Below, in pieces: positions 57,126 through 64,000 of a stretch of DNA of 64,000 bases; the first letter of the stretch is position 1; each line of letters opens with the position of its first letter. Under the pieces are notes generated by a model. It ran no database searches. It worked only from the letters and a program-made list of their open reading frames with translations, and had not been told where the DNA came from. Made by a program: the position numbers and the translations under genes. The DNA is from an uncultured Planctomycetota bacterium (GTDB taxonomy: Bacteria > Planctomycetota > Planctomycetia > Isosphaerales > Isosphaeraceae): contig CAVTTN010000002.1 in the NCBI GenBank assembly GCA_963737655.1, positions 6,720,001 to 6,784,000 on the forward strand, written 5' to 3'.

Positions 57126-58082
57126 TCAGGGGGTGTCCAGGGGGCTGCGGACCCCGAGCGGGCCGGACTGAAGAACGTGGGTATAAATCATGGTAGTGCG
57201 AACATCTTCATGCCCCAGGAGTTCCTGGACCGTCCGGATGTCGCGCCCTTCTTCCAGGAGGTGGGTGGCGAAGCTATGGCGGAGCGTGTGGGGGCTGGCC
57301 GGCTTGACCAGGCCCGCGCGGAGGGCGGCCCGTCGCACCGCCCTCTGCAGCGCCTGCTCTCCCACGTGGTGACGGCGGACCGCCCCCGATCGCGGATCGA
57401 CCGACTTCGTCCCCGCGGGGAAGACGTACTGCCAGCCGAGCGAGCGATCCGCCTCGGGATACTTCCTCGCCAGGGCGAACGGCAGGTGGACCCGCCCGAA
57501 CCCCTGGCGGAGGTCCTGCGAATGGAGGTCCTTCACCCGGGCGACCTGGCGCCGAAGCGCCTCGACCAGCGCGACCGGGAGCACCGTCACGCGGTCCTTC
57601 TGCCCTTTGCCGTCGCGAACGACCAGGTGCTTCTGCCCGAAATCCACGTCCTTGACGCGCAAGCGGACGCATTCCATCAGCCGGAGTCCGGACCCGTAAA
57701 GCAGCCCGGCCATCAGCCCGAACGTCCCGTCGAGCTGCGCCAGAAGAGCGCGAACCTCCTGGCGAGTCAGGACCACCGGCAGCCGCTCGGGCCTCCGGGC
57801 CCTGGGCAGGTCGCCAAACTCCTCCAGAGGACGCTTCACGACCTCCCGGTAGAGGAACAACAGGGCGCTGAGTGCCTGGTTCTGGGTCGAGGCCGCCACA
57901 TTCCGATCCACCGCCAGATGGGTCAGGAAGGCCCCAACCTCCACCTCGCCCATTTCCTCGGGATGCCGCTTCTCGTGAAACAAGATGAACTGCTTCGCCC
58001 AGCGGACATAAGCATCCTCAGTGCGAAGGCTATAATGCAACGTCCGGGCAGCCTCCCGGACCCGGTCCAGCAGCATCGACAT
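57126..58082 (-). CDS. intI: Integron integrase
   Basis: [44 protein letters not shown], IntI-specific insert ([12 protein letters not shown]...WQYVFP...RRHH), [26 protein letters not shown]. Confidence 0.98.
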
Positions 58083-58179
58083 GGTCGTGTCGTCCCGATC
58101 AACGAATCAAGGAAGAGAAAATCCAAAGAAAATCCTTGCAAGGCGAACTCCCCGCCGGCAAAATCAACAACCGGCCCGA

Positions 58180-58231
58180 GATTATACGTCCGAAACGACG
58201 TGATAAACCACATCATTTCGGACGTATAATC
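58180..58231. promoter_or_regulatory. 16-bp perfect inverted repeat carrying outward-facing TATAAT boxes between intI and attI
   Basis: GATTATACGTCCGAAA (58180-58195), 20-nt spacer, TTTCGGACGTATAATC (58216-58231). Confidence 0.65.
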
Positions 58232-58239
58232 CCGCAAAT

Positions 58240-58282
58240 TCGGGGATTCTGCGTCACTTTCGATGTCTACTTCATGTTAGGC
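58240..58282 (+). other. Putative attI site
   Basis: First GTTAGGC core (58276-58282) upstream of intI, at the AT-rich to GC-rich transition, not preceded by an attC hairpin. Left boundary approximate. Confidence 0.75.
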
Positions 58283-58513
58283 GGCTCAGGAGTCGAAGCC
58301 TTCGGTCGTGCTCGTCGTCGGCCTCGCCGGTCGCGCCTCGGCTCGACGACGCCATCGGTCGGGCCCCTGGAGTCGGCCTCGGCGGTGGTGCGCGTCGTCG
58401 CCCTCGCCGGCCGCGCCCCCGAGGTCGGGCCCGTCGGCCGGCGCCCCCTTGCCAACGCCGTCGGTCCGTGCCAGGATCGTCGGTGTCGGCGCGTGGGGCG
58501 TCGCCGGGGCGCC

Positions 58514-58613
58514 GCCTAACCCGGCGCTGCAGCGGACCCGGCCCGCGGTCGACGATCACTCTCCTCTCAATCTCGCCGGGCGCGGGCCGGTCCGCTGAGC
58601 TTTGTCGTTAGGC
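58514..58613 (+). other. attC site 1 (intact)
   Basis: GCCTAAC...CTGCAGCGGACC...GGTCCGCTGAG...GTTAGGC. Confidence 0.93.
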
Positions 58614-58978
58614 GGCTGACTCACGGGTCATTCGCAAGGTCTGATGGCAGCGTGCGACGTCGCCGGGGGCCCGGTCGGTCCCGTGCTTCGAGCGTCGTCG
58701 CCGCCGTGTCATCGCGCATCGCCGGTGGCCTCGGTCCTCACCGCGGTGGTGTCGTTGCCGTGGGGGCTCGCGTGCGTTCGTTGCCGCGGGGGTCTTGCGT
58801 CGTGCTCACGCGCCGCCTCCCCGTGAACTCTTCGCGCCGGCGGTTCGGCATCGGTTGATACTATGTGGGCATGATCATCGATCGGCCCGCATCCCCCCCG
58901 GCCCCCGCGACGACGGGGACGGCCCGATCCGGCTCGGCGGGGCTTGCGGTCGGGCGCCCCGCCTCCGACCCGTCGCCC

Positions 58979-60331
58979 TCACGACGGCGGCGACGGCGGC
59001 GACTTCGCCACCAGCTCGTAGCCCAGCGACCTCGCCTTGCGCCGCAGCGACCGCTCCTGCTTCGCGCGCACCTCGGCCTCGTACTCCGCCAGCGACCTCG
59101 ACACGTACTCCTCGCCGTGCCTGAGCATCCGGTACACCAGCCGCGACAGCTTGTGCGCCGTCGCCGTGATCGCCCCCCGGCCGCCGATCCGGCCCTTGAT
59201 CCGCCGGTAGAACTGGCCCGTCGCCGTCGCCGTCCGGCCCGCCGCCTGCGCCGCCATCCGCAGCGCCTGACCCACCCGGTTCTTGCCCTTGCGGGGCGTG
59301 CGACGCCGCTCGGTCTTGTTGCTCCGGTCGGTCCGCGGGCAGAGGCCCAGCCAGCTGGCGAAGTGCTTCTCGCTCGGGAACCGCCCCACGTCGCCGCCGA
59401 GCTCGGCCAGGATCACCGTCGCCGTCGTCGCGTCGATCCCCTCGATGGCCGTCAGGTCCACGCCGATCGCCCGGGCCAGCTTGGCCGGGGCGTCGAACCG
59501 CACGTCGTTGGCCTTGCGGCCGCGCTTGCGGGGCCTCGCCGCGATCGGCCGGCCTTCGGAGCGGTCGGGCAGGCGGTCCAGCTCCTCGGCGATCCGGGCG
59601 TCGCACTCGTCGACCTGGCGGTGGAGGTAGTGGTACAGGTCGGACGCCTGCCTCAGGGCGAACAGGTGCTCGGGCCGCCAGGTGCCCTCCAGGGCCCGGG
59701 CGATCTCCGCCTCGTCCCGGGCGCACCGCTCGTGCCGCAGCGCGGCCAGCTTCGTGGCGTCCCGCTCGCCGGCGAGGATCGCGGCGATGATCGCCGTGCC
59801 GGTGACGCCCGTGATGCTGCTGACGACCTCGGTCAGCTTCACATTCATCTGCTCCAAAGCCTTCTGCATGTGCTGGACGTGGTGCGAGGCGTACCGCACG
59901 AGCATCTGCCGCTGCCGCCAGTAGCCGCGCAGGGCCAGGACGGCCCCGGGCGGGCGGAAGGACGGGCGGAGCAGGCCGCACGAGTGGAGGCGCTGGAGCC
60001 ACTGGCAGTCGAGCCGGTCGGTCTTGGGCCGGGCGCCGCAGTGGCTGGCCTGGCTCGGCTCGATGAGGAAGACCTCGAAGCCGCGCGATTCGAGCAGCTC
60101 GAACAGGGGGATCCAGTAGACGCCGGTGGACTCCAGGACCACCGAGGTGACGCCCTCGGCCCGGAACCAATCGGCCAGGGCGTGGAGGTCGGCCGAGCAG
60201 GCGCCGAAGGTGCGGACCCGTCCGGGCCCGACGCAGGCGACGTGGTTGTCGGAGTGGACGTCGACGGCGGCGGCGTGGGGGTGGACGACCGGCAGGGACG
60301 CGTCGGGATCGGGGGGCGTGCGGCGACTCAT
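58979..60331 (-). CDS. IS110-family DEDD transposase/recombinase
   Basis: AAVDVH, VLESTGVYW, KTDRLD catalytic residues; C-terminal FPSEKHFASWLGLCP...S and AITATAHKLSRLVYRML. Confidence 0.96.
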   Translation of the reverse strand: MSRRTPPDPDASLPVVHPHAAAVDVHSDNHVACVGPGRVRTFGACSADLHALADWFRAEGVTSVVLESTGVYWIPLFELLESRGFEVFLIEPSQASHCGARPKTDRLDCQWLQRLHSCGLLRPSFRPPGAVLALRGYWRQRQMLVRYASHHVQHMQKALEQMNVKLTEVVSSITGVTGTAIIAAILAGERDATKLAALRHERCARDEAEIARALEGTWRPEHLFALRQASDLYHYLHRQVDECDARIAEELDRLPDRSEGRPIAARPRKRGRKANDVRFDAPAKLARAIGVDLTAIEGIDATTATVILAELGGDVGRFPSEKHFASWLGLCPRTDRSNKTERRRTPRKGKNRVGQALRMAAQAAGRTATATGQFYRRIKGRIGGRGAITATAHKLSRLVYRMLRHGEEYVSRSLAEYEAEVRAKQERSLRRKARSLGYELVAKSPPSPPS

Positions 60332-60359
60332 GGCGAGGGCTCCGGCGGGTGGGGGGCCA

Positions 60360-60580
60360 AGCCGTCGCGGGCCGAGAGGGGGTCCGGGGACGAGGTAGTC
60401 TCCCCGACGGGAACGTCGCGGGGCCGTGTTGACACGGCGCCGCGGGTCACCAATGATGGGGCCACGGCCTCTCGGGCCAAGCTAACCTGCGGGCGGCGAG
60501 CACCAGGGAGATGACGGCCGGGAGGCCCGCGGCGGCGACGCCGATCGTACCGCGCCCCGGTTCACGTCCGTCGGGGAGCG
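60360..60580 (-). ncRNA. Putative bridge/seek RNA of the IS110 element (boundaries and strand inferred)
   Basis: Non-coding, hairpin-rich, conserved in blocks with the 380-bp mini-elements; contains CTAACCT (target match) and CTCCCCG (element-end match). Confidence 0.65.
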
Positions 60581-60601
60581 GTCGCAGGCCGCGCGGAGAG
60601 T

Positions 60602-60698
60602 TAACCTTGCGCTGCAGCGGACCCGGCCACGGGCCGCGCCTTGTGTCCTTTCCGGCTCGTCGGTCCGTGGACCGGTCCGCTGAGCTTTGGCGTTAGGC
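60602..60698 (+). other. attC site 2 (left box interrupted by IS110)
   Basis: TAAC...CTGCAGCGGACC...GGTCCGCTGAG...GTTAGGC. Confidence 0.92.
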
Positions 60699-60907
60699 GG
60701 CTGACTCACGGGTCATTCGCGAGGCCCGTTCGCAGCGAAGCAAGCGACGTCGCCGGCGGCTCGGTCGGTCCCGTGCTTCGAGCGTCGTCACCGCCGTGTC
60801 GTCGAACATCGCCGCGGGCATCGGTCCTCACCGCCGCGGGTTCGTTGCCGTGGGGTCTCGCGTGCGTTCGTTGCCGTCGGGGTCTTGCGTCGTGCCTTCG
60901 CGCCGCC

Positions 60908-61287
60908 TCTTCGTGAACTCTTTGGCTGGGAACGGCCATCGACGCGCGACACTACCCCAACCCCAGGCTTTGTGGCCGGGCAGCGGCGAGGTCCGGGTAG
61001 CAAACCGACGGATTCAAGAGCGGCGGACGAGGCGCGGGCCGAGAGGGGAGTCGGTTACGTTTGCAGTCTCTTCGACGGGAACATCCCCGCGAGTCGGCTC
61101 GCGGGGCGTCGCCAATGACCGGATCACGACCTCTCGGGCCAGGCTAACCTACGGGCAGGGAGCACCAAGGTGGAGACGGCCGGGAGGCCCGCGCCACACT
61201 CAGGCTACGCCGCGCCGGGTCGGCGGGCAAGTCGTCCCCGACCCCCGTTCACGCCCCGTCGGGAGCGGACGAAGGCCGCAGGATGGT
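60908..61287 (-). mobile_element. 380-bp non-autonomous IS110-related mini-element, copy 1 (in attC 3)
   Basis: Between GCC 60905-60907 and TAAC 61288-61291; ends and right ~250 bp homologous to the IS110 ends and non-coding region; no transposase. Confidence 0.9.
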
Positions 61288-61384
61288 TAACCTTGCGCTG
61301 CAGCGGACCCGGCCACGGGCCGCGTTCTTTGTTCTTTCACGCTCACAGGTCCGTGGACCGGTCCGCTGAGCTTTGGCGTTAGGC
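61288..61384 (+). other. attC site 3 (interrupted)
   Basis: TAAC...CTGCAGCGGACC...GGTCCGCTGAG...GTTAGGC. Confidence 0.92.
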
Positions 61385-61408
61385 GTCTTCGCAGCGGAGG
61401 GGCACGCG

Positions 61409-61855
61409 GTGGGGATCACTCCGGCGACGCGGAAGCCGGTCCACCTCCTGACGGCTGCCGATCTCGCGGCGTTCCCGGTCTGGGAGTACGCCGACGATGA
61501 GGAGTCCGTCGAGGGTCGGGATGAGACCTGGATCCGCCCTGTCCCCGTCGAAGTCATGCCTTCCCGGAGCTATGCCATCGTCGCGGCGGACTTCGAGGCT
61601 GCTTGCGGTCGTCGCTTCCAGGGGTATGTCTTCGTCTCCACGTTGGAGGGCGCCCCCGACGCATGCCAGGGCGTCATCTGGTCAGGTTCGTCGGGCCTCT
61701 TCGTCGCTAACCCGGAGGCTGTCGTCTACAAGGGATCGCGGGCTGAGTTGCTCGCAGGGCTGGGCGTCGGCGAGCATGAGTTGTTCCCCCTGTCCTTCCG
61801 TCCGCGCGTTCCGGTCGAGGGTATGCAAGGGCTCTGGTCAGGCGTGTTACCCTAA
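61409..61855 (+). CDS. Cassette-encoded hypothetical protein
   Basis: GGAGG RBS, GTG start, RKPVHLLTAADLAAFPVWEYADDEE...DETWIRPV; stop abuts attC 4. Confidence 0.8.
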   Translation: MGITPATRKPVHLLTAADLAAFPVWEYADDEESVEGRDETWIRPVPVEVMPSRSYAIVAADFEAACGRRFQGYVFVSTLEGAPDACQGVIWSGSSGLFVANPEAVVYKGSRAELLAGLGVGEHELFPLSFRPRVPVEGMQGLWSGVLP

Positions 61856-61856
61856 C

Positions 61857-61958
61857 GCCTAACCCGGCGCTGCAGCGGACCCCGGCCACGGGCCGCGCTT
61901 TCTCTTCTGTTGTAGCTCAGTGGTCCGTGGCCGGGTCCGCTGAGCTTGGTCGTTAGGC
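61857..61958 (+). other. attC site 4 (intact)
   Basis: GCCTAAC...GTTAGGC with the same inner boxes. Confidence 0.93.
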
Positions 61959-61977
61959 GTCAGGGGGCGATCTCGCC

Positions 61978-62421
61978 GTGAGCGTCAAAGTCCTCGCGCT
62001 CGACCTTGAGCGAACGCTGATCGATGACGCCCTGAGCGCCCGCCCACGGCCCGGCCTCCGCGATTTCCTCGCCTTCTGCGACGAGAGCTTCACGCGGGTC
62101 GCCATCTACACCACGGTCGAGGAGACCGACGCCCGCGAAGTCATTGATGAACTGGCCCGTGAGGGCCACGTCACTCAGGCCCTGCTAGCGCGGCTGGAGT
62201 ACATCGATTGGTCGGGCGAGCACAAGGATCTTGCGTATGTGCCCGGCGTCGCCGCGGAAGAGGTGGTGCTCGTCGATGACGACGCCGGTTGGATCCGGCC
62301 GGATCAGCGAGGGAGCTGGGTCGCCATCAAGCCCTGGGACGGCGGGCCGGACGGCGAGTTGCCCCGCATCAGGTCAATACTCCAGGCCCTGGTCGCCGGT
62401 GTGGCCGCGCCGGATGCCTAA
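61978..62421 (+). CDS. Cassette-encoded HAD-superfamily (NIF/FCP1-like) protein
   Basis: VLALDLERTLI...RPGLRDFL...AIYT...KDL...VVLVDD; the second Asp of DxD is Glu; stop lies in the attC TAA. Confidence 0.75.
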   Translation: MSVKVLALDLERTLIDDALSARPRPGLRDFLAFCDESFTRVAIYTTVEETDAREVIDELAREGHVTQALLARLEYIDWSGEHKDLAYVPGVAAEEVVLVDDDAGWIRPDQRGSWVAIKPWDGGPDGELPRIRSILQALVAGVAAPDA

Positions 62422-62515
62422 CCTCGCGCTGCAGCGGACCCGGCCCGCCGCGGCGTTTTCTGGTATCATCAAGCCTTCACTTGGCGGTCCGGTCCGCTGA
62501 GCTTTGGCGTTAGGC
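62416..62515 (+). other. attC site 5 (intact)
   Basis: GCCTAAC...GTTAGGC with the same inner boxes. Confidence 0.93.
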
Positions 62516-62557
62516 GGCTCGACCTCAACCGTGGACGACGTGCACGATGACCCCTCG

Positions 62558-62977
62558 ATGGAGATACGCTCCTGCCACGGCAGGCGTGGCCTCCGCTTCC
62601 ACAGCCGGCGCGGAGACTACTTCCACGCGAGCGTCGAGGGTGACGGCCCGAGTGCCTCCGTGCGGGTCTGGGGCTACACCGATTGCCACCTCCTCGTCGA
62701 CCTCTTCGAGTCGATCGCCCACGACTGGCGCGGCTGGCAAGGCGAGCGTTCCTGGTCCTCCATCGAGGATGAGTTCCGCATCGGTGCCACCACCGACAAG
62801 GCGGGCCATGTCACCCTCTCGGTTGTGCTTGCTCACTGTGACGGGATGGACGACTGGCGGCTCTCGGTGCCGGTCTTCACCGAGGCCGGACAGCTCGAAA
62901 AGATCGCCCGAGAGGTCGCTCGCTTCTTCTCCGGCGATGCGAGCGGCCCCCCGCCCGCAGATGCCGCCTCTTCGTGA
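62558..62977 (+). CDS. Cassette-encoded hypothetical protein (DUF6228-like; start may be GTG 62531)
   Basis: LFESIAHDWRGWQGERSWSSIEDEF...GHVTLSV...EAGQLEKIAREVARFF; last two codons and stop come from the mini-element. Confidence 0.75.
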   Translation: MEIRSCHGRRGLRFHSRRGDYFHASVEGDGPSASVRVWGYTDCHLLVDLFESIAHDWRGWQGERSWSSIEDEFRIGATTDKAGHVTLSVVLAHCDGMDDWRLSVPVFTEAGQLEKIAREVARFFSGDASGPPPADAASS

Positions 62978-63348
62978 ACTCTTTGGCTGGGAACGGCCAT
63001 CGACGCGCGACACTACCCCAACCCCAGGCTTTGTGGCCGGGCAGCGGCGAGGTCCGGGTAGCAAACCGACGGATTCAAGAGCGGCGGACGAGGCGCGGGC
63101 CGAGAGGGGAGTCGGTTACGTTTGCAGTCTCTTCGACGGGAACATCCCCGCGAGTCGGCTCGCGGGGCGTCGCCAATGACCGGATCACGACCTCTCGGGC
63201 CAGGCTAACCTACGGGCAGGGAGCACCAAGGTGGAGACGGCCGGGAGGCCCGCGCCACACTCAGGCTACGCCGCGCCGGGTCGGCGGGCAAGTCGTCCCC
63301 GACCCCCGTTCACGCCCCGTCGGGAGCGGACGAAGGCCGCAGGATGGT
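62969..63348 (-). mobile_element. 380-bp non-autonomous IS110-related mini-element, copy 2 (in attC 6)
   Basis: Identical by eye to 60908-61287; between GCC 62966-62968 and TAAC 63349-63352. Confidence 0.9.
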
Positions 63349-63447
63349 TAACCTCGCGCTGCAGCGGACCCCGGCCACGGGCCGCGCCTTCTGCGTCTTC
63401 GTAACTCGCTGGTCCGTGGCCGGGTCCGCTGAGCTTGGTCGTTAGGC
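63349..63447 (+). other. attC site 6 (interrupted)
   Basis: TAAC...CTGCAGCGGACC...GGTCCGCTGAG...GTTAGGC. Confidence 0.92.
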
Positions 63448-63464
63448 GGCGGGAGGCTCCCGCG

Positions 63465-63785
63465 ATGGAATGGCCCGAACCGTGGTGCGATGTCGCCGAT
63501 CTCGGCCCCGACTTCGCGGCTACGTTCGAGCGCGTCCTGGTGCGCGAGGTCGCGAGGGGCCATCCGCTCCACGGCATCACGGTCGCAGCGGTCGGCAAGC
63601 GCGACGGCACCGACGACGTGCTATTTCGGCTGCTCGACGGCTCCGGGCGTGTTGCTGCCGTGCATCTGACCTGGACGCGCTCACCTCCCGAACGGCCACC
63701 CTGGCCGGCAACCGAACTATTCGCCAATTTCGAGGCGTTTGCCCGGCATCAGATGCAACCCGACCACGAGGAATACGTGACGTAG
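63465..63785 (+). CDS. Cassette-encoded hypothetical protein
   Basis: GGAGG RBS; MEWPEPW...EVARGHPLHG...DDVLFRL...AAVHLTW...PWPATELF. Confidence 0.8.
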   Translation: MEWPEPWCDVADLGPDFAATFERVLVREVARGHPLHGITVAAVGKRDGTDDVLFRLLDGSGRVAAVHLTWTRSPPERPPWPATELFANFEAFARHQMQPDHEEYVT

Positions 63786-63806
63786 CGGCGGGCACAGAAC
63801 GCCGCC

Positions 63807-64000
63807 TCTTCGTGAACTCTTTGGCTGGGAACGGCCATCGACGCGCGACACTACCCCAACCCCAGGCTTTGTGGCCGGGCAGCGGCGAGGTCCGGGTAGC
63901 AAACCGACGGATTCAAGAGCGGCGGACGAGGCGCGGGCCGAGAGGGGAGTCGGTTACGCTTGCAGTCTCTTCGACGGGAACATCCCCGCGAGTCGGCTCG
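63807..64000 (-). mobile_element. Mini-element copy 3 (runs off the right edge; presumably in attC 7)
   Basis: Starts after GCCGCC (63801-63806); matches copies 1 and 2 except T>C at 63959. Confidence 0.88.

What the first reader, a model, noticed from the sequence alone, without database searches (positions are those of the whole stretch)
58817..61074. An internal 7-mer co-varies with each element's own end: candidate donor-binding guide
Seen: in the full IS the junction reads CTCCCCG-TGAAC (58817-58823) and its non-coding region has AGT-CTCCCCG-ACGGG (60400-60406). In the mini-element the junction reads CTCTTCG-TGAAC (60907-60913) and the homologous internal position has AGT-CTCTTCG-ACGGG (61068-61074). 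The same CC>TT double change occurs at both distant positions. Known: bridge RNAs have a donor-binding loop that base-pairs with the element's end junction. Inference: this is the donor guide, and the mini-element carries its own orthogonal RNA/donor pair. Only two element types are compared here. The IS 7-mer also lies in an 11-nt complement to 60568-60578, so an intramolecular stem is an alternative.
Basis: partly seen in the sequence, partly recalled or inferred. Interest (0 to 1): 0.85.

Follow-up and report, generated by a model that had tools for sequence, protein, structure and literature searches.

The report
Guide RNA word matching element's end
A seven-letter word inside a jumping gene and inside its miniature hitch-hiker spells each element's own end, as expected if each makes a guide RNA that tells a shared recombinase which DNA to move.

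Summary
The window carries an IS110-family element (58819-60600, recombinase gene on the minus strand) and a 378-bp element without a recombinase gene (60909-61286). Both sit in attC sites of a chromosomal integron. The internal 7-mer (60400-60406; 61068-61074) equals the first five bases of the element plus the 2-base crossover core (58817-58823; 60907-60913). All 6 full copies in the genome pair CCCCG with CCCCG, and all 28 minis pair CTTCG with CTTCG; there are no hybrids. In relatives from other genomes the 7-mer at the homologous position recurs at the element's own far end in 32 of 36 types, against 39 of 1108 mismatched pairings, with 13 different 7-mers. A twin module carries a second 7-mer that spells the attC flank. 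The conserved fold is a three-way junction with two look-alike loops. The 11-bp stem is real in the full IS, but it is lost in the mini and in most relatives. The kind is known (Durrant 2024). New here are the mini with its own complete RNA and a re-coded guide/end pair, and the swapped order of guides. RNA expression and mobilisation in trans are inferred.

The parts
57126..58082 (-). integron integrase gene intI
   Evidence: NCBIfam TIGR02249 integron integrase, 475 bits against a cut-off of 265. It is the only copy in the genome over the cut-off.
58514..58613 (+). empty attC site (R'' GCCTAACC ... R' CGTTAGGC). It shows the uninterrupted target GCCT|AACC.
58817..58818 (+). crossover core CT (AG on the recombinase strand) at the far end of the full IS
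   Evidence: Shared by the empty attC and by all 6 IS and 28 mini left junctions. It forms the last two letters of both guide 7-mers.
58819..60600 (-). full IS110-family element, 1782 bp without the core; 6 copies in the genome
   Evidence: Copies and flanks. The right end GGAGAG is followed by TT and then AACC of attC.
58819..58823 (+). terminal five bases CCCCG of the IS: the donor half-site read by the internal guide
   Evidence: Constant in 6 of 6 IS copies and different from the mini (CTTCG).
58823..58838 (+). sub-terminal inverted repeat at the far end: GTGAAC, then AACTCTTCGCGCC
   Evidence: 12 of 14 bases are the inverted copy of 60589-60602. The GTTCAC part is mirrored at 60560-60565. 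Relatives show the same kind of mirror in 11 of 27 types against 15 of 626 foreign pairings.
58979..60331 (-). recombinase gene, 450 aa
   Evidence: Pfam PF01548 and PF02371. NCBIfam NF033542, IS110 family RNA-guided transposase, 253 bits against a cut-off of 140.
60361..60536 (-). core of the predicted bridge RNA. Helix P1 (60525-60536 with 60361-60372) encloses a target module and a donor module.
   Evidence: RNAalifold on 27 types. Pair counts: P1 0.69, P2 0.93, P3 1.00, P4 0.71, P5 0.86 paired. Shifted controls give 0.2-0.65; for P4 they reach 0.65, a small margin.
60400..60406 (-). donor guide 5'-CGGGGAG-3' (the finding's internal 7-mer). It lies on the 3' strand of the donor loop, after the conserved CCCGU.
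60408..60452 (-). hairpin P5 capping the donor loop (UGGUGAC...GUUCCCG)
   Evidence: The mini has a different hairpin sequence at the same place.
60482..60488 (-). target guide 5'-AGGUUAG-3' = attC flank AGGTT plus core AG
   Evidence: In relatives, matches to the flank upstream of the RNA-bearing end lie 114-144 nt upstream of the guide. This was the strongest non-trivial diagonal in the covariation scan.
60490..60519 (-). target loop: stem strand GGCCG, a 9-nt 5' strand UCAUCUCCC, and hairpin P3 (UGGUGC..GCCCG)
   Evidence: In relatives the 9-nt strand is antisense to the flank beyond the far end in 8 of 26 types against 10 of 644, but not in the IS or the mini.
60560..60578 (-). leader segment CUCCCCGACGGACGUGAAC: antisense copy of the far end with a 6-nt insert. 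It forms the 11-bp complement to the donor guide.
60601..60698 (+). second core copy TT (60601-60602) and the rest of the interrupted attC
60907..60908 (+). core CT at the far end of the mini element
60909..61286 (-). mini element, 378 bp, no recombinase gene; 28 copies in the genome
   Evidence: The only ORFs listed within it are short and lie in all frames, and none was tested. Its homology to the IS is limited to about 75% identity over the RNA region.
60909..60913 (+). terminal five bases CTTCG of the mini
   Evidence: 28 of 28 copies
61068..61074 (-). mini donor guide 5'-CGAAGAG-3'
   Evidence: 28 of 28 copies. It is unpaired in the mini's minimum-energy fold.
61144..61150 (-). mini target guide AGGUUAG, the same as in the IS
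61247..61265 (-). mini leader segment CUCCCGACGGGGCGUGAAC. It is not compensated for the GG>AA change in the guide.
61287..61384 (+). second core copy TT and the rest of the attC interrupted by the mini
62968..63353 (-). second mini copy in the window, with its core copies
63806..64000 (-). third mini copy, cut by the end of the window

Best explanation
The 7-mer is the donor guide of a bridge RNA. The RNA is encoded on the minus strand in the 270-nt non-coding end upstream of an IS110-family recombinase gene.

The predicted RNA folds into a three-way junction with two look-alike internal loops. Each loop is closed by a stem and capped by a UGGUG...CCCG hairpin. On the 3' strand of the first loop sits AGGUUAG, which equals the attC flank plus the 2-base core. 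On the 3' strand of the second loop sits CGGGGAG, which equals the last five bases of the element's far end plus the same core. Each word can pair with the opposite DNA strand, so one recombinase-RNA complex holds the element's end and the attC site together and exchanges strands at the core (CT on the plus strand).

The mini element has lost the recombinase gene but keeps a complete RNA of this kind with the same target word. Its donor word is changed at two bases (CGAAGAG), and its own end carries the matching change. It would therefore be moved by the IS's recombinase loaded with the mini's own RNA, while each RNA ignores the other element's ends.

Shown here: the sequence identities, the covariation, the conserved fold and the protein family. 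Inferred: transcription, RNA-protein binding, pairing with DNA, and mobilisation in trans.
For: 1. Within the genome, 6 of 6 full copies and 28 of 28 minis keep guide and end matched, with no hybrids. This holds for mini subfamilies only 87.6-88.4% identical to the reference copy.

2. Across genomes, the own 7-mer lies downstream of the gene in 32 of 36 types, against 39 of 1108 foreign pairings, with 13 distinct 7-mers. It lies at the independently mapped end in six multi-copy families. L084 and L069 differ by one base at both sites.

3. Mini homologues elsewhere: a same-genus genome has an 83%-identical mini with CGAAGAG and CGAAG. The contig behind L031 has a relative of the IS (84% aa identity) in tandem with a mini that carries TGAAGAG at both sites.

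4. A parallel module matches the target flank. A purely element-internal repeat cannot explain this.

5. The fold is conserved, with compensatory changes in P2, P3 and P5. G-U pairs mark the minus strand as the RNA strand. In the mini the P5 hairpin is replaced by a different sequence that still forms a hairpin.

6. The protein is an IS110 family RNA-guided transposase.

7. Published model: loops with guides that include the core; donor mismatches are poorly tolerated (PMC11208160, passages); the two loops are pseudo-symmetric (PMC11208158, passages).
Against: - There is no evidence of transcription. No RNA run holds the locus, and the consensus scan found no promoter on the minus strand.
- No Rfam family matches.
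- The order of guides within the loops is the reverse of IS621.
- I found no guide for the other donor half, the first bases of the RNA-bearing end.
- In the IS and the mini, the 5' strand of the target loop does not match the attC flank.
- In the full IS the guide is predicted to be locked in an 11-bp helix in the full-length leader.
- In the per-position table the ends were located with the help of a 6-mer match, so only searches count as independent.
- Four of 36 types miss. In L045 the last base differs. L090 and L107 have truncated genes, so the downstream window was misplaced. L056 is unexplained.
Confidence: 0.85

Rival explanations
1. The 7-mer is only one strand of an intramolecular helix (60400-60410 with 60568-60578) that shapes or regulates the leader RNA. 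On this view its likeness to the element's end is a by-product.
For: There is a perfect 11-bp complement in the IS. The IS minimum-energy fold uses it. The IS duplex of leader and guide is -25.8 kcal/mol, better than with all 25 foreign guides. In several relatives of the GGGGAG subgroup the own guide also ranks near the top: 0 to 2 of 20 foreign guides do as well in L034, L035, L036, L042, L099 and L105, but 5 of 20 in L040 and 8 of 25 in L031.
Against: In the mini the guide changed and the leader did not: its own duplex ranks 16 of 26, and its minimum-energy fold leaves the guide unpaired. Types outside the GGGGAG subgroup show no clear preference, with ranks from 11 of 25 to 25 of 25, except L084 at 2 of 22. 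A helix does not explain identity with the far end in 32 of 36 types, nor the twin word that matches the target flank. A masking helix can coexist with a guide role.
Confidence: 0.05
2. The two copies of the 7-mer are DNA sites for the recombinase (a direct repeat at the end and inside the element), read by protein and not by RNA.
For: The element also carries inverted repeats near its ends that could be protein sites.
Against: Sixteen different 7-mers are seen in proteins 41-84% identical: 13 by the strict anchor, TTGAGAG by the looser anchor, and CGAAGAG and TGAAGAG in minis. Protein reading would need protein specificity to change each time. The IS and the mini in one genome would need two proteins, yet only one clade of this recombinase is present, plus one 33%-identical paralogue. 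The word lies in a conserved RNA fold next to a twin word that spells the target.
Confidence: 0.04
3. The 7-mer reads the target rather than the donor. If the boundary were at 58823|58824, as first written, CTCCCCG would be flanking DNA.
For: The first two letters (CT) are indeed shared with the target. The RNA's other word is a target guide.
Against: The empty attC reads GCCT|AACC. Both element types sit in the same kind of attC but carry type-specific CCCCG or CTTCG in every copy, while the flanks beyond vary.
Confidence: 0.03

Closest known systems
IS621 bridge RNA (IS110 group; Durrant et al. 2024, PMC11208160; Hiraizumi et al. 2024, PMC11208158; passages and one section read)
   Same: - The RNA is encoded in the non-coding end upstream of a DEDD/Tnp recombinase gene.
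- It has two pseudo-symmetric internal loops, one for the target and one for the donor.
- The guides include a 2-base core, which reads CT when the DNA is viewed from the plus strand.
- Donor and RNA covary.
   Different: [quoted passage not shown] In IS621 it lies on the 5' side and is 8-9 nt long.
- Both loops hang from one three-way junction instead of standing in series.
- No guide was found for the second donor half.
- The donor-side core reads TT and the target-side core CT in all 34 copies.
- No Rfam match.
seekRNA of IS1111/IS110 elements, including the attC-seeking ISKpn4 and ISPst6 (Siddiquee et al. 2024, PMC11187229, passages read). The IS1111-attC group (Tetu & Holmes 2008; Post & Hall 2009) was seen only in reference lists.
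   Same: - It targets one end of integron attC sites in one orientation.
- The full IS has sub-terminal inverted repeats (12 of 14 bases).
- The stretch beyond the repeat is unequal at the two ends.
- The complement of the recombinase-sense strand comes first in the RNA, which is the order reported for IS1111.
   Different: - The long non-coding region and the RNA lie upstream of the gene, not downstream.
- The 7-base extension lies at the end downstream of the gene.
- In relatives the inner repeat lies about 40 nt inside the RNA-bearing end.
- I did not compare the proteins with named IS1111-attC members.
MITEPpu9, the ssr9 module of ISPpu9 in Pseudomonas putida (Pares-Guillen et al. 2025, PMC12288879, passages read)
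   Same: - It is a small element without a recombinase gene, tied to an IS110-family IS.
- It is flanked by end sequences like those of the IS.
- It has an AG core.
- It carries a small-RNA gene.
- It is found alone or in tandem downstream of the IS, as in locus L031 here.
- It is proposed to move with recombinase supplied in trans.
   Different: - In the passages I read, Ssr9 is discussed as a partner of an antisense RNA, not as a bridge RNA with its own guides.
- Its end boxes differ from those of the IS by 1-3 mismatches, with no matching change in an RNA reported.
- Here the mini keeps both guide modules, has a re-coded donor word that matches its re-coded end, and outnumbers the IS 28 to 6.

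Membership tests
IS110-family RNA-guided recombinase (protein) | N-terminal DEDD (RuvC-like) domain and C-terminal Tnp domain | tested here: met
   PF01548 E=1.9e-17 (residues 22-162) and PF02371 E=5.9e-18 (residues 293-375). NF033542, 253 bits against a cut-off of 140.
bridge RNA (IS621 type) | encoded in a non-coding end beside the recombinase gene, on the same strand | tested here: met
   The conserved motifs and fold lie in the 273 nt upstream of the gene. The strand is inferred from G-U pairs in P2, P3 and P5.
bridge RNA (IS621 type) | two similar internal loops, each closed by a stem and capped by a stem-loop | tested here: met
   Modules T (P2/P3) and D (P4/P5). P2 0.93, P3 1.00 and P5 0.86 of cells paired, with AU/UA replacements; shifted controls give 0.2-0.5. 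P4 is weaker: 0.71 against up to 0.65.
bridge RNA (IS621 type) | one loop matches the target and the other the donor, both including the core dinucleotide | tested here: met
   Target word equals the flank. Donor word equals the far end in 32 of 36 types against 39 of 1108. Both words end in AG or AA.
bridge RNA (IS621 type) | [quoted passage not shown] | tested here: not met
   The order is swapped: the sense-strand 7-mers lie on the 3' sides. The 5' strand of the target loop is antisense to the far flank in 8 of 26 types. The scheme is equivalent to IS621 only if the DNA is turned by 180 degrees.
bridge RNA (IS621 type) | a second donor guide for the other half of the donor | tested here: inconclusive
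   No diagonal for the first bases of the RNA-bearing end appeared apart from the self-match. Instead, an antisense copy of far-end positions -13 to -7 lies about 40 nt inside the RNA-bearing end (11 of 27 against 15 of 626).
bridge RNA (IS621 type) | the RNA is made and binds the recombinase | not testable with these tools
   No RNA run is listed for the locus.
IS1111 group | sub-terminal inverted repeats of 7-17 bp (as stated in PMC11208160 and PMC11187229) | tested here: met
   60589-60602 against 58825-58838: 12 of 14 bases. The relatives lack this outer repeat and have only the inner one.
IS1111 group | long non-coding region and RNA downstream of the gene | tested here: not met
   273 nt lie upstream and 155 nt downstream, and the RNA motifs are upstream. 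The seekRNA paper notes a few exceptions with an upstream region (PMC11187229, passage).
MITE-like hitch-hiker of an IS110 element (MITEPpu9 type) | no recombinase gene, IS-like ends, many copies, same target | tested here: met
   378 bp, 28 copies, the same attC position and orientation, and the same target word.
MITE-like hitch-hiker of an IS110 element (MITEPpu9 type) | excises as a circle when recombinase is supplied in trans | not testable with these tools
   There are no reads to lay. Only one recombinase clade of this kind, plus a 33%-identical paralogue, is in the genome.
chromosomal integron | intI followed by an array of attC sites | tested here: met
   TIGR02249, 475 bits. 17 attC-like sites follow intI, and 9 of them are occupied by these elements. 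R''/R' were recognised by the RYYYAAC/GTTRRRY consensus, which I recalled rather than took from a tool.

The most novel reading that the evidence does not exclude
The mini is an RNA-only parasite of the IS. It encodes no protein but a complete bridge RNA with a private donor code, so it captures the IS's recombinase for itself while its ends stay invisible to the IS's own RNA, and the IS's ends stay invisible to its RNA. This would be a natural pair of orthogonal bridge RNA/donor sets sharing one recombinase and one target. The pairing has lasted: it is kept through 12% divergence within this genome, in a same-genus genome, and in a distant contig where the first guide base and the end changed together. 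It let the mini outnumber the IS 28 to 6 and occupy much of an integron's attC array.
Probability: 0.5. Interest if true: 0.75.

Novelty: new variant of a known kind. Interest (0 to 1): 0.6.

Why it matters
Bridge RNAs are used as programmable recombination tools, and natural cases show what the system tolerates. If the reading holds, one recombinase serves two RNAs with different donor codes in the same cell. That is direct natural evidence that donor specificity lies in a few RNA bases, and it offers a ready-made orthogonal pair to test.

It also shows that an RNA-guided mobile element can be parasitised by an element that carries only the guide. This extends the single described case, MITEPpu9.

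The guide order, the three-way junction and the missing second donor guide mark a clade whose wiring differs from IS621. That is useful for comparing mechanisms.

For integron biology, 9 of 17 attC sites of this array are split by these elements, which should affect cassette excision.

Tried and rejected
- Rfam: no family above noise in 58000-62600.
- Public runs: no RNA holder listed. Five runs hold only 5-6% of the words, so none was laid.
- tblastn against plasmids: only generic 'IS110 family transposase' labels at 50% identity or less, and no named IS, so the IS110 or IS1111 subgroup could not be set from names.
- Guide for the first bases of the RNA-bearing end: none found in the covariation scan or by eye in either loop.
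- 5' strand of the target loop against the attC flank in the IS and the mini: 1 and 2 of 6 bases match, so no match. Its partial likeness to the sense strand of the element's own first bases (UCUCC in the IS) did not hold in L031 or L112.
- A long-range pairing of CCGGGG (just after the leader segment) with CCCCGG (after the guide) was considered. It crosses helix P1, which is better supported, and I dropped it.
- Promoter scan: nothing on the minus strand. The junction of the two ends does not give a convincing -35/-10 by eye.
- Earlier notes of this scan near the place and by sequence: nothing.
- Literature searches for an element without a recombinase gene but with its own bridge RNA (terms: bridge RNA, non-autonomous, MITE, IS110, orphan, bRNA, transposase-less, solo bridge RNA, miniature, trans-mobilization). 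These gave only MITEPpu9, plus a preprint remark that bridge RNA may act in trans for elements lacking the 5' region (10.64898/2026.08.14.744561, passage).
- Supplements of the cited papers were not opened. Durrant's supplementary tables may already list this clade.
Full report
**What is there**

The window holds the start of a chromosomal integron. The ORF at 57126-58082 (minus strand) is an integron integrase: TIGR02249, 475 bits against a cut-off of 265. It is the only one in the 7.6-Mb genome over the cut-off.

To its right lies an array of palindromic sites that begin GCCTAACC and end CGTTAGGC. These fit the attC consensus R''/R', which I recalled rather than took from a tool.

The ORF at 58979-60331 (minus strand, 450 aa) is an IS110-family recombinase. 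It hits PF01548 and PF02371 and NF033542, 'IS110 family RNA-guided transposase', at 253 bits against a cut-off of 140.

**Boundaries**

The genome has 6 full copies of the element: three are identical and three are about 96.5% identical. It has 28 copies of the small element: 24 are 98.9-100% identical to the window's copy, and the others are 97.9, 95.0, 88.4 and 87.6% identical.

The 210-bp stretches left of both elements (58607-58823 and 60699-60913) occur only twice in the genome, so they are flank, a pair of related cassettes.

In every copy the right flank is the attC remainder, AACC followed by GCGCTGCAGCGG (one attC is truncated). The left flank ends in ..GCCT followed by CCCCG in 6 of 6 full copies and by CTTCG in 28 of 28 minis. 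Further left the flanks are unrelated.

An empty attC reads GCCT|AACC (58514). The elements therefore start right after CT: 58819 for the IS and 60909 for the mini. They end before TT-AACC: at 60600 and 61286. This matters because it puts the two variable bases inside the element.

**The observation**

All coordinates check. The two 7-mers are common words in this window: 23 occurrences of CTCCCCG where 53 are expected, and 20 of CTCTTCG where 14 are expected. Recurrence alone means nothing.

What counts is that the words sit at homologous positions and change together. In this genome the pairing is perfect in 34 of 34 elements, with no hybrid of one type's guide and the other type's end. The pairing survives in mini subfamilies that differ from the main one by about 12%.

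**The covariation test in relatives**

A protein-based scan of one genome per species gave 79 loci with relatives at 41-84% amino-acid identity.

In their upstream non-coding ends a motif CCCGT-7mer-A(C/T)T is conserved, and I used it as an anchor that does not look at the other end. The regex found this motif in 53 of 79 loci. Of these, 51 also had at least 150 nt downstream of the gene. I grouped them into 36 types by less than 90% identity of the first 150 nt downstream, which over-splits some families.

The own 7-mer recurs within 330 nt downstream of the gene in 32 of 36 types. Foreign 7-mers recur in 39 of 1108 pairings. The four misses are these:
- L045, where only the last base differs.
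- L090 and L107, where the gene match is truncated, so the window was misplaced.
- L056, which is unexplained.

The hit always follows GTT(C/A/T)N. In six multi-copy families it ends exactly where the copies diverge from their flanks.

Thirteen different 7-mers behave this way. A fourteenth (TTGAGAG, L109) appears with a looser anchor.

L084 and L069, which are 78% identical, have TTGGAAG and TTAGAAG, each at both places. The per-position table shows identity at 202 of 203 cells. However, its ends were located with the help of a 6-mer match, so it only illustrates and does not test.

**A twin word for the target**

About 80 nt upstream in the RNA, a second conserved frame, CCCG-N-7mer-C(U/A)UGG, carries AGGUUAG in both the IS (60482-60488) and the mini (61144-61150). 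This equals the attC flank AGGTT plus the core.

In relatives, this 7-mer equals the flank beside the RNA-bearing end at 114-144 nt upstream. L036 and L037 are copies of one element, 99% identical. They differ by one base in the word (CATTCAG against CATTTAG), and each matches the flank of its own insertion. Two further copies (L038, L039) carry the word that fits the other flank variant, with one mismatch each.

In an unbiased scan of RNA columns against four DNA sites, this was the strongest diagonal after the trivial self-matches. The donor word came next.

Both words end in the same two bases, AG (rarely AA). This is the crossover core, which reads CT on the plus strand.

**The fold**

RNAalifold on 27 types, together with pair counts, gives the following.

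- An outer helix P1 (0.69 of cells paired, against 0.39-0.46 when the partner is shifted) encloses two modules.
- The target module is closed by P2 (0.93). It has a 9-nt 5' strand, a capping hairpin P3 (UGGUGC...GCCCG, 1.00, with GC-to-AU and CG-to-UA replacements), and then the target word.
- The donor module is closed by P4 (0.71; its controls reach 0.65, so it is the weakest helix). It has a capping hairpin P5 (UGGUGAC...GUUCCCG, 0.86), and then U plus the donor word.

G-U pairs in these helices would be C-A on the other strand, so the RNA strand is the recombinase strand.

The mini keeps all of this. Its P5 hairpin has a different sequence that still forms a 9-bp hairpin, and its minimum-energy fold reproduces P1, P2, P3 and P4 with the donor word unpaired. 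Single-sequence stability is not unusual for this G+C content (z = -0.57 and -1.51), so the support comes from comparison and not from energy.

**How it compares with the known model**

In IS621 each loop consists of stem, left guide, stem-loop and right guide. The 5' guide pairs with the bottom strand over 8-9 nt, the 3' guide pairs with the top strand over 4-7 nt, and all guides include the CT core (PMC11208160 and PMC11208158, passages read).

Here the words that carry the sequence of the recombinase-sense strand lie on the 3' side. In relatives, the 5' strand of the target loop is antisense to the flank beyond the far end, with at least 5 of 6 bases matching in 8 of 26 types against 10 of 644 foreign pairings.

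The scheme equals that of IS621 only if the DNA is turned by 180 degrees. The core then reads CT, as in IS621.

The order 'complement of the top strand first' is what the seekRNA paper reports for IS1111 elements (PMC11187229, passage). The full IS also has a 12-of-14 sub-terminal inverted repeat. However, the RNA lies upstream of the gene, as in the IS110 group.

So the element works like a bridge-RNA element. It is a member of the IS110 family by its protein, and its RNA wiring is mixed. I did not see its sequence.

**The stem alternative**

The 11-bp complement is real and strong. The IS leader pairs with its own guide region at -25.8 kcal/mol, better than with any of 25 foreign guides, and the IS minimum-energy fold uses it.

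In several relatives whose word is (C/T)GGGGAG the own guide also ranks near the top: 0 to 2 of 20 foreign guides do as well in L034, L035, L036, L042, L099 and L105. In L040 it is 5 of 20 and in L031 8 of 25.

The other subgroups show no clear preference, with ranks from 11 of 25 to 25 of 25, except L084 at 2 of 22. In the mini the guide changed while the leader kept CUCCCG (rank 16 of 26).

The leader segment is better described as an imperfect antisense copy of the far end. Its GUGAAC half mirrors far-end positions -13 to -7. This mirror recurs about 40 nt inside the RNA-bearing end in 11 of 27 types, against 15 of 626 foreign pairings.

I cannot tell whether it acts as a DNA inverted repeat, as a further RNA guide, or, in the IS, as a mask of the donor word in the unprocessed transcript. 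It does not replace the guide reading.

**The mini element**

The mini is not a recent deletion of the IS. It shares only the first ten or so bases of the far end and the RNA region, at about 75% identity. True deletion derivatives of the IS also exist, with IS-type ends, but as single copies.

Mini homologues occur in a same-genus genome, at 83% identity, with CGAAGAG and CGAAG, in an attC.

Another homologue lies on the contig behind L031. There a relative of the IS (84% aa identity) is followed directly by a mini whose guide and end both read TGAAGAG. That tandem resembles ISPpu9 with its ssr9 module, MITEPpu9. MITEPpu9 forms circles and is proposed to move with recombinase supplied in trans (PMC12288879, passages read).

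The genome has no other recombinase of this clade, only a 33%-identical paralogue. The most likely picture is therefore that the minis use the IS's protein with their own RNA.

Two mismatches in a 7-nt donor guide should block cross-recognition, given that donor mismatches are poorly tolerated in IS621 (PMC11208160, passage). This step is inference.

**What remains open**

- I have no evidence of transcription.
- I found no guide for the first bases of the RNA-bearing end.
- In the IS and the mini, the 5' strand of the target loop does not match the attC flank (1 and 2 of 6 bases). Target choice may therefore rest on the 7-nt word plus the attC structure, as a preprint proposes for a stem-loop beside the ISPpu10 target (10.64898/2026.03.19.712850, abstract and passages).
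- The core reads CT at the far end and TT at the RNA-bearing end in all 34 copies and in several relatives, although both guides say CT. IS621 tolerates change at the first core base (PMC11208158, passage).

**Verdict**

The kind of system has been known since 2024. The variant is new in two respects: a mini element with its own complete bridge RNA and a re-coded guide/end pair, and a clade with swapped guide order that fills an integron's attC sites.

Noticed in passing
window 60429-60457 (+): The only sigma-70-like promoter match in 58700-61450 (TTGACA, 17 nt, AATGAT; 0.0 expected in shuffles) lies on the strand opposite to the predicted RNA, inside the donor-loop hairpin of the full IS. It would drive an antisense transcript across the target module. 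The mini lacks it. ISPpu9 has an antisense RNA at a similar place (PMC12288879, passage).
   Followed up: no
window 58601-58602/60601-60602 context; all copies in G000: The 2-base core reads CT at the far end but TT at the RNA-bearing end in all 6 IS and 28 mini copies. Relatives L036, L040 and L099 do the same (AA against AG on the recombinase strand), although both RNA words end in AG. The tandem junction in L031 also reads AA. This suggests that the donor core differs from the target core and that one outcome of strand exchange is always kept.
   Followed up: partly
window 58614-58816 and 60699-60906: Two related cassettes of about 205 bp (86% identical) are the only two copies in the genome. 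Each lies directly left of an element, and neither has an obvious gene.
   Followed up: no
window 58514-64000 and on to G000:C2:6794008: Of 17 attC-like sites after intI, 9 are split: by 2 full IS, 6 minis and 1 deleted IS. All insertions have one orientation, antisense to cassette transcription. The remaining copies sit at six other places in the genome beside the same kind of attC remainder (four groups of two or more elements and two lone minis). No integrase over the cut-off lies anywhere but in this window.
   Followed up: partly
window 60506-60514 and 61168-61176 (-): The 9-nt 5' strand of the target loop varies among close relatives (UCAUCUCCC, UCUCCACCU, UCACUUCCC, UCGUCACCC, UACUCUCCU) without matching the constant attC flank. 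In other clades it is antisense to the flank.
   Followed up: partly
G000:C2:6791944-6792597 and 1680650-1681649 (outside the window): Two single-copy deletion derivatives of the IS keep IS-type ends. One retains the target word but has lost the donor module. The other keeps both modules and 142 codons of the gene.
   Followed up: partly
G000:C2:290834, 291157, 1118571, 1119605 (outside the window): The 17-mer GCCGCCTCCCCGTGAAC (attC edge plus the first ten bases of the IS) recurs at four places. Each time it is followed by unrelated DNA with a TTTACA...TATACC promoter-like pair and runs of GGAAAAGGGGACGG repeats. No matching right end was found.
   Followed up: no
L031:1811-2273 and L031 whole: A 2.3-kb contig labelled as coming from a different phylum-level group than most other relatives holds the closest relative of the IS (84% aa identity) and a mini in tandem. 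This suggests that the pair travels together between distant hosts.
   Followed up: partly
G000:C2:4847387-4848220: A second IS110-family gene, 33% identical, lies about 2 kb from one of the divergent minis (4850321).
   Followed up: no
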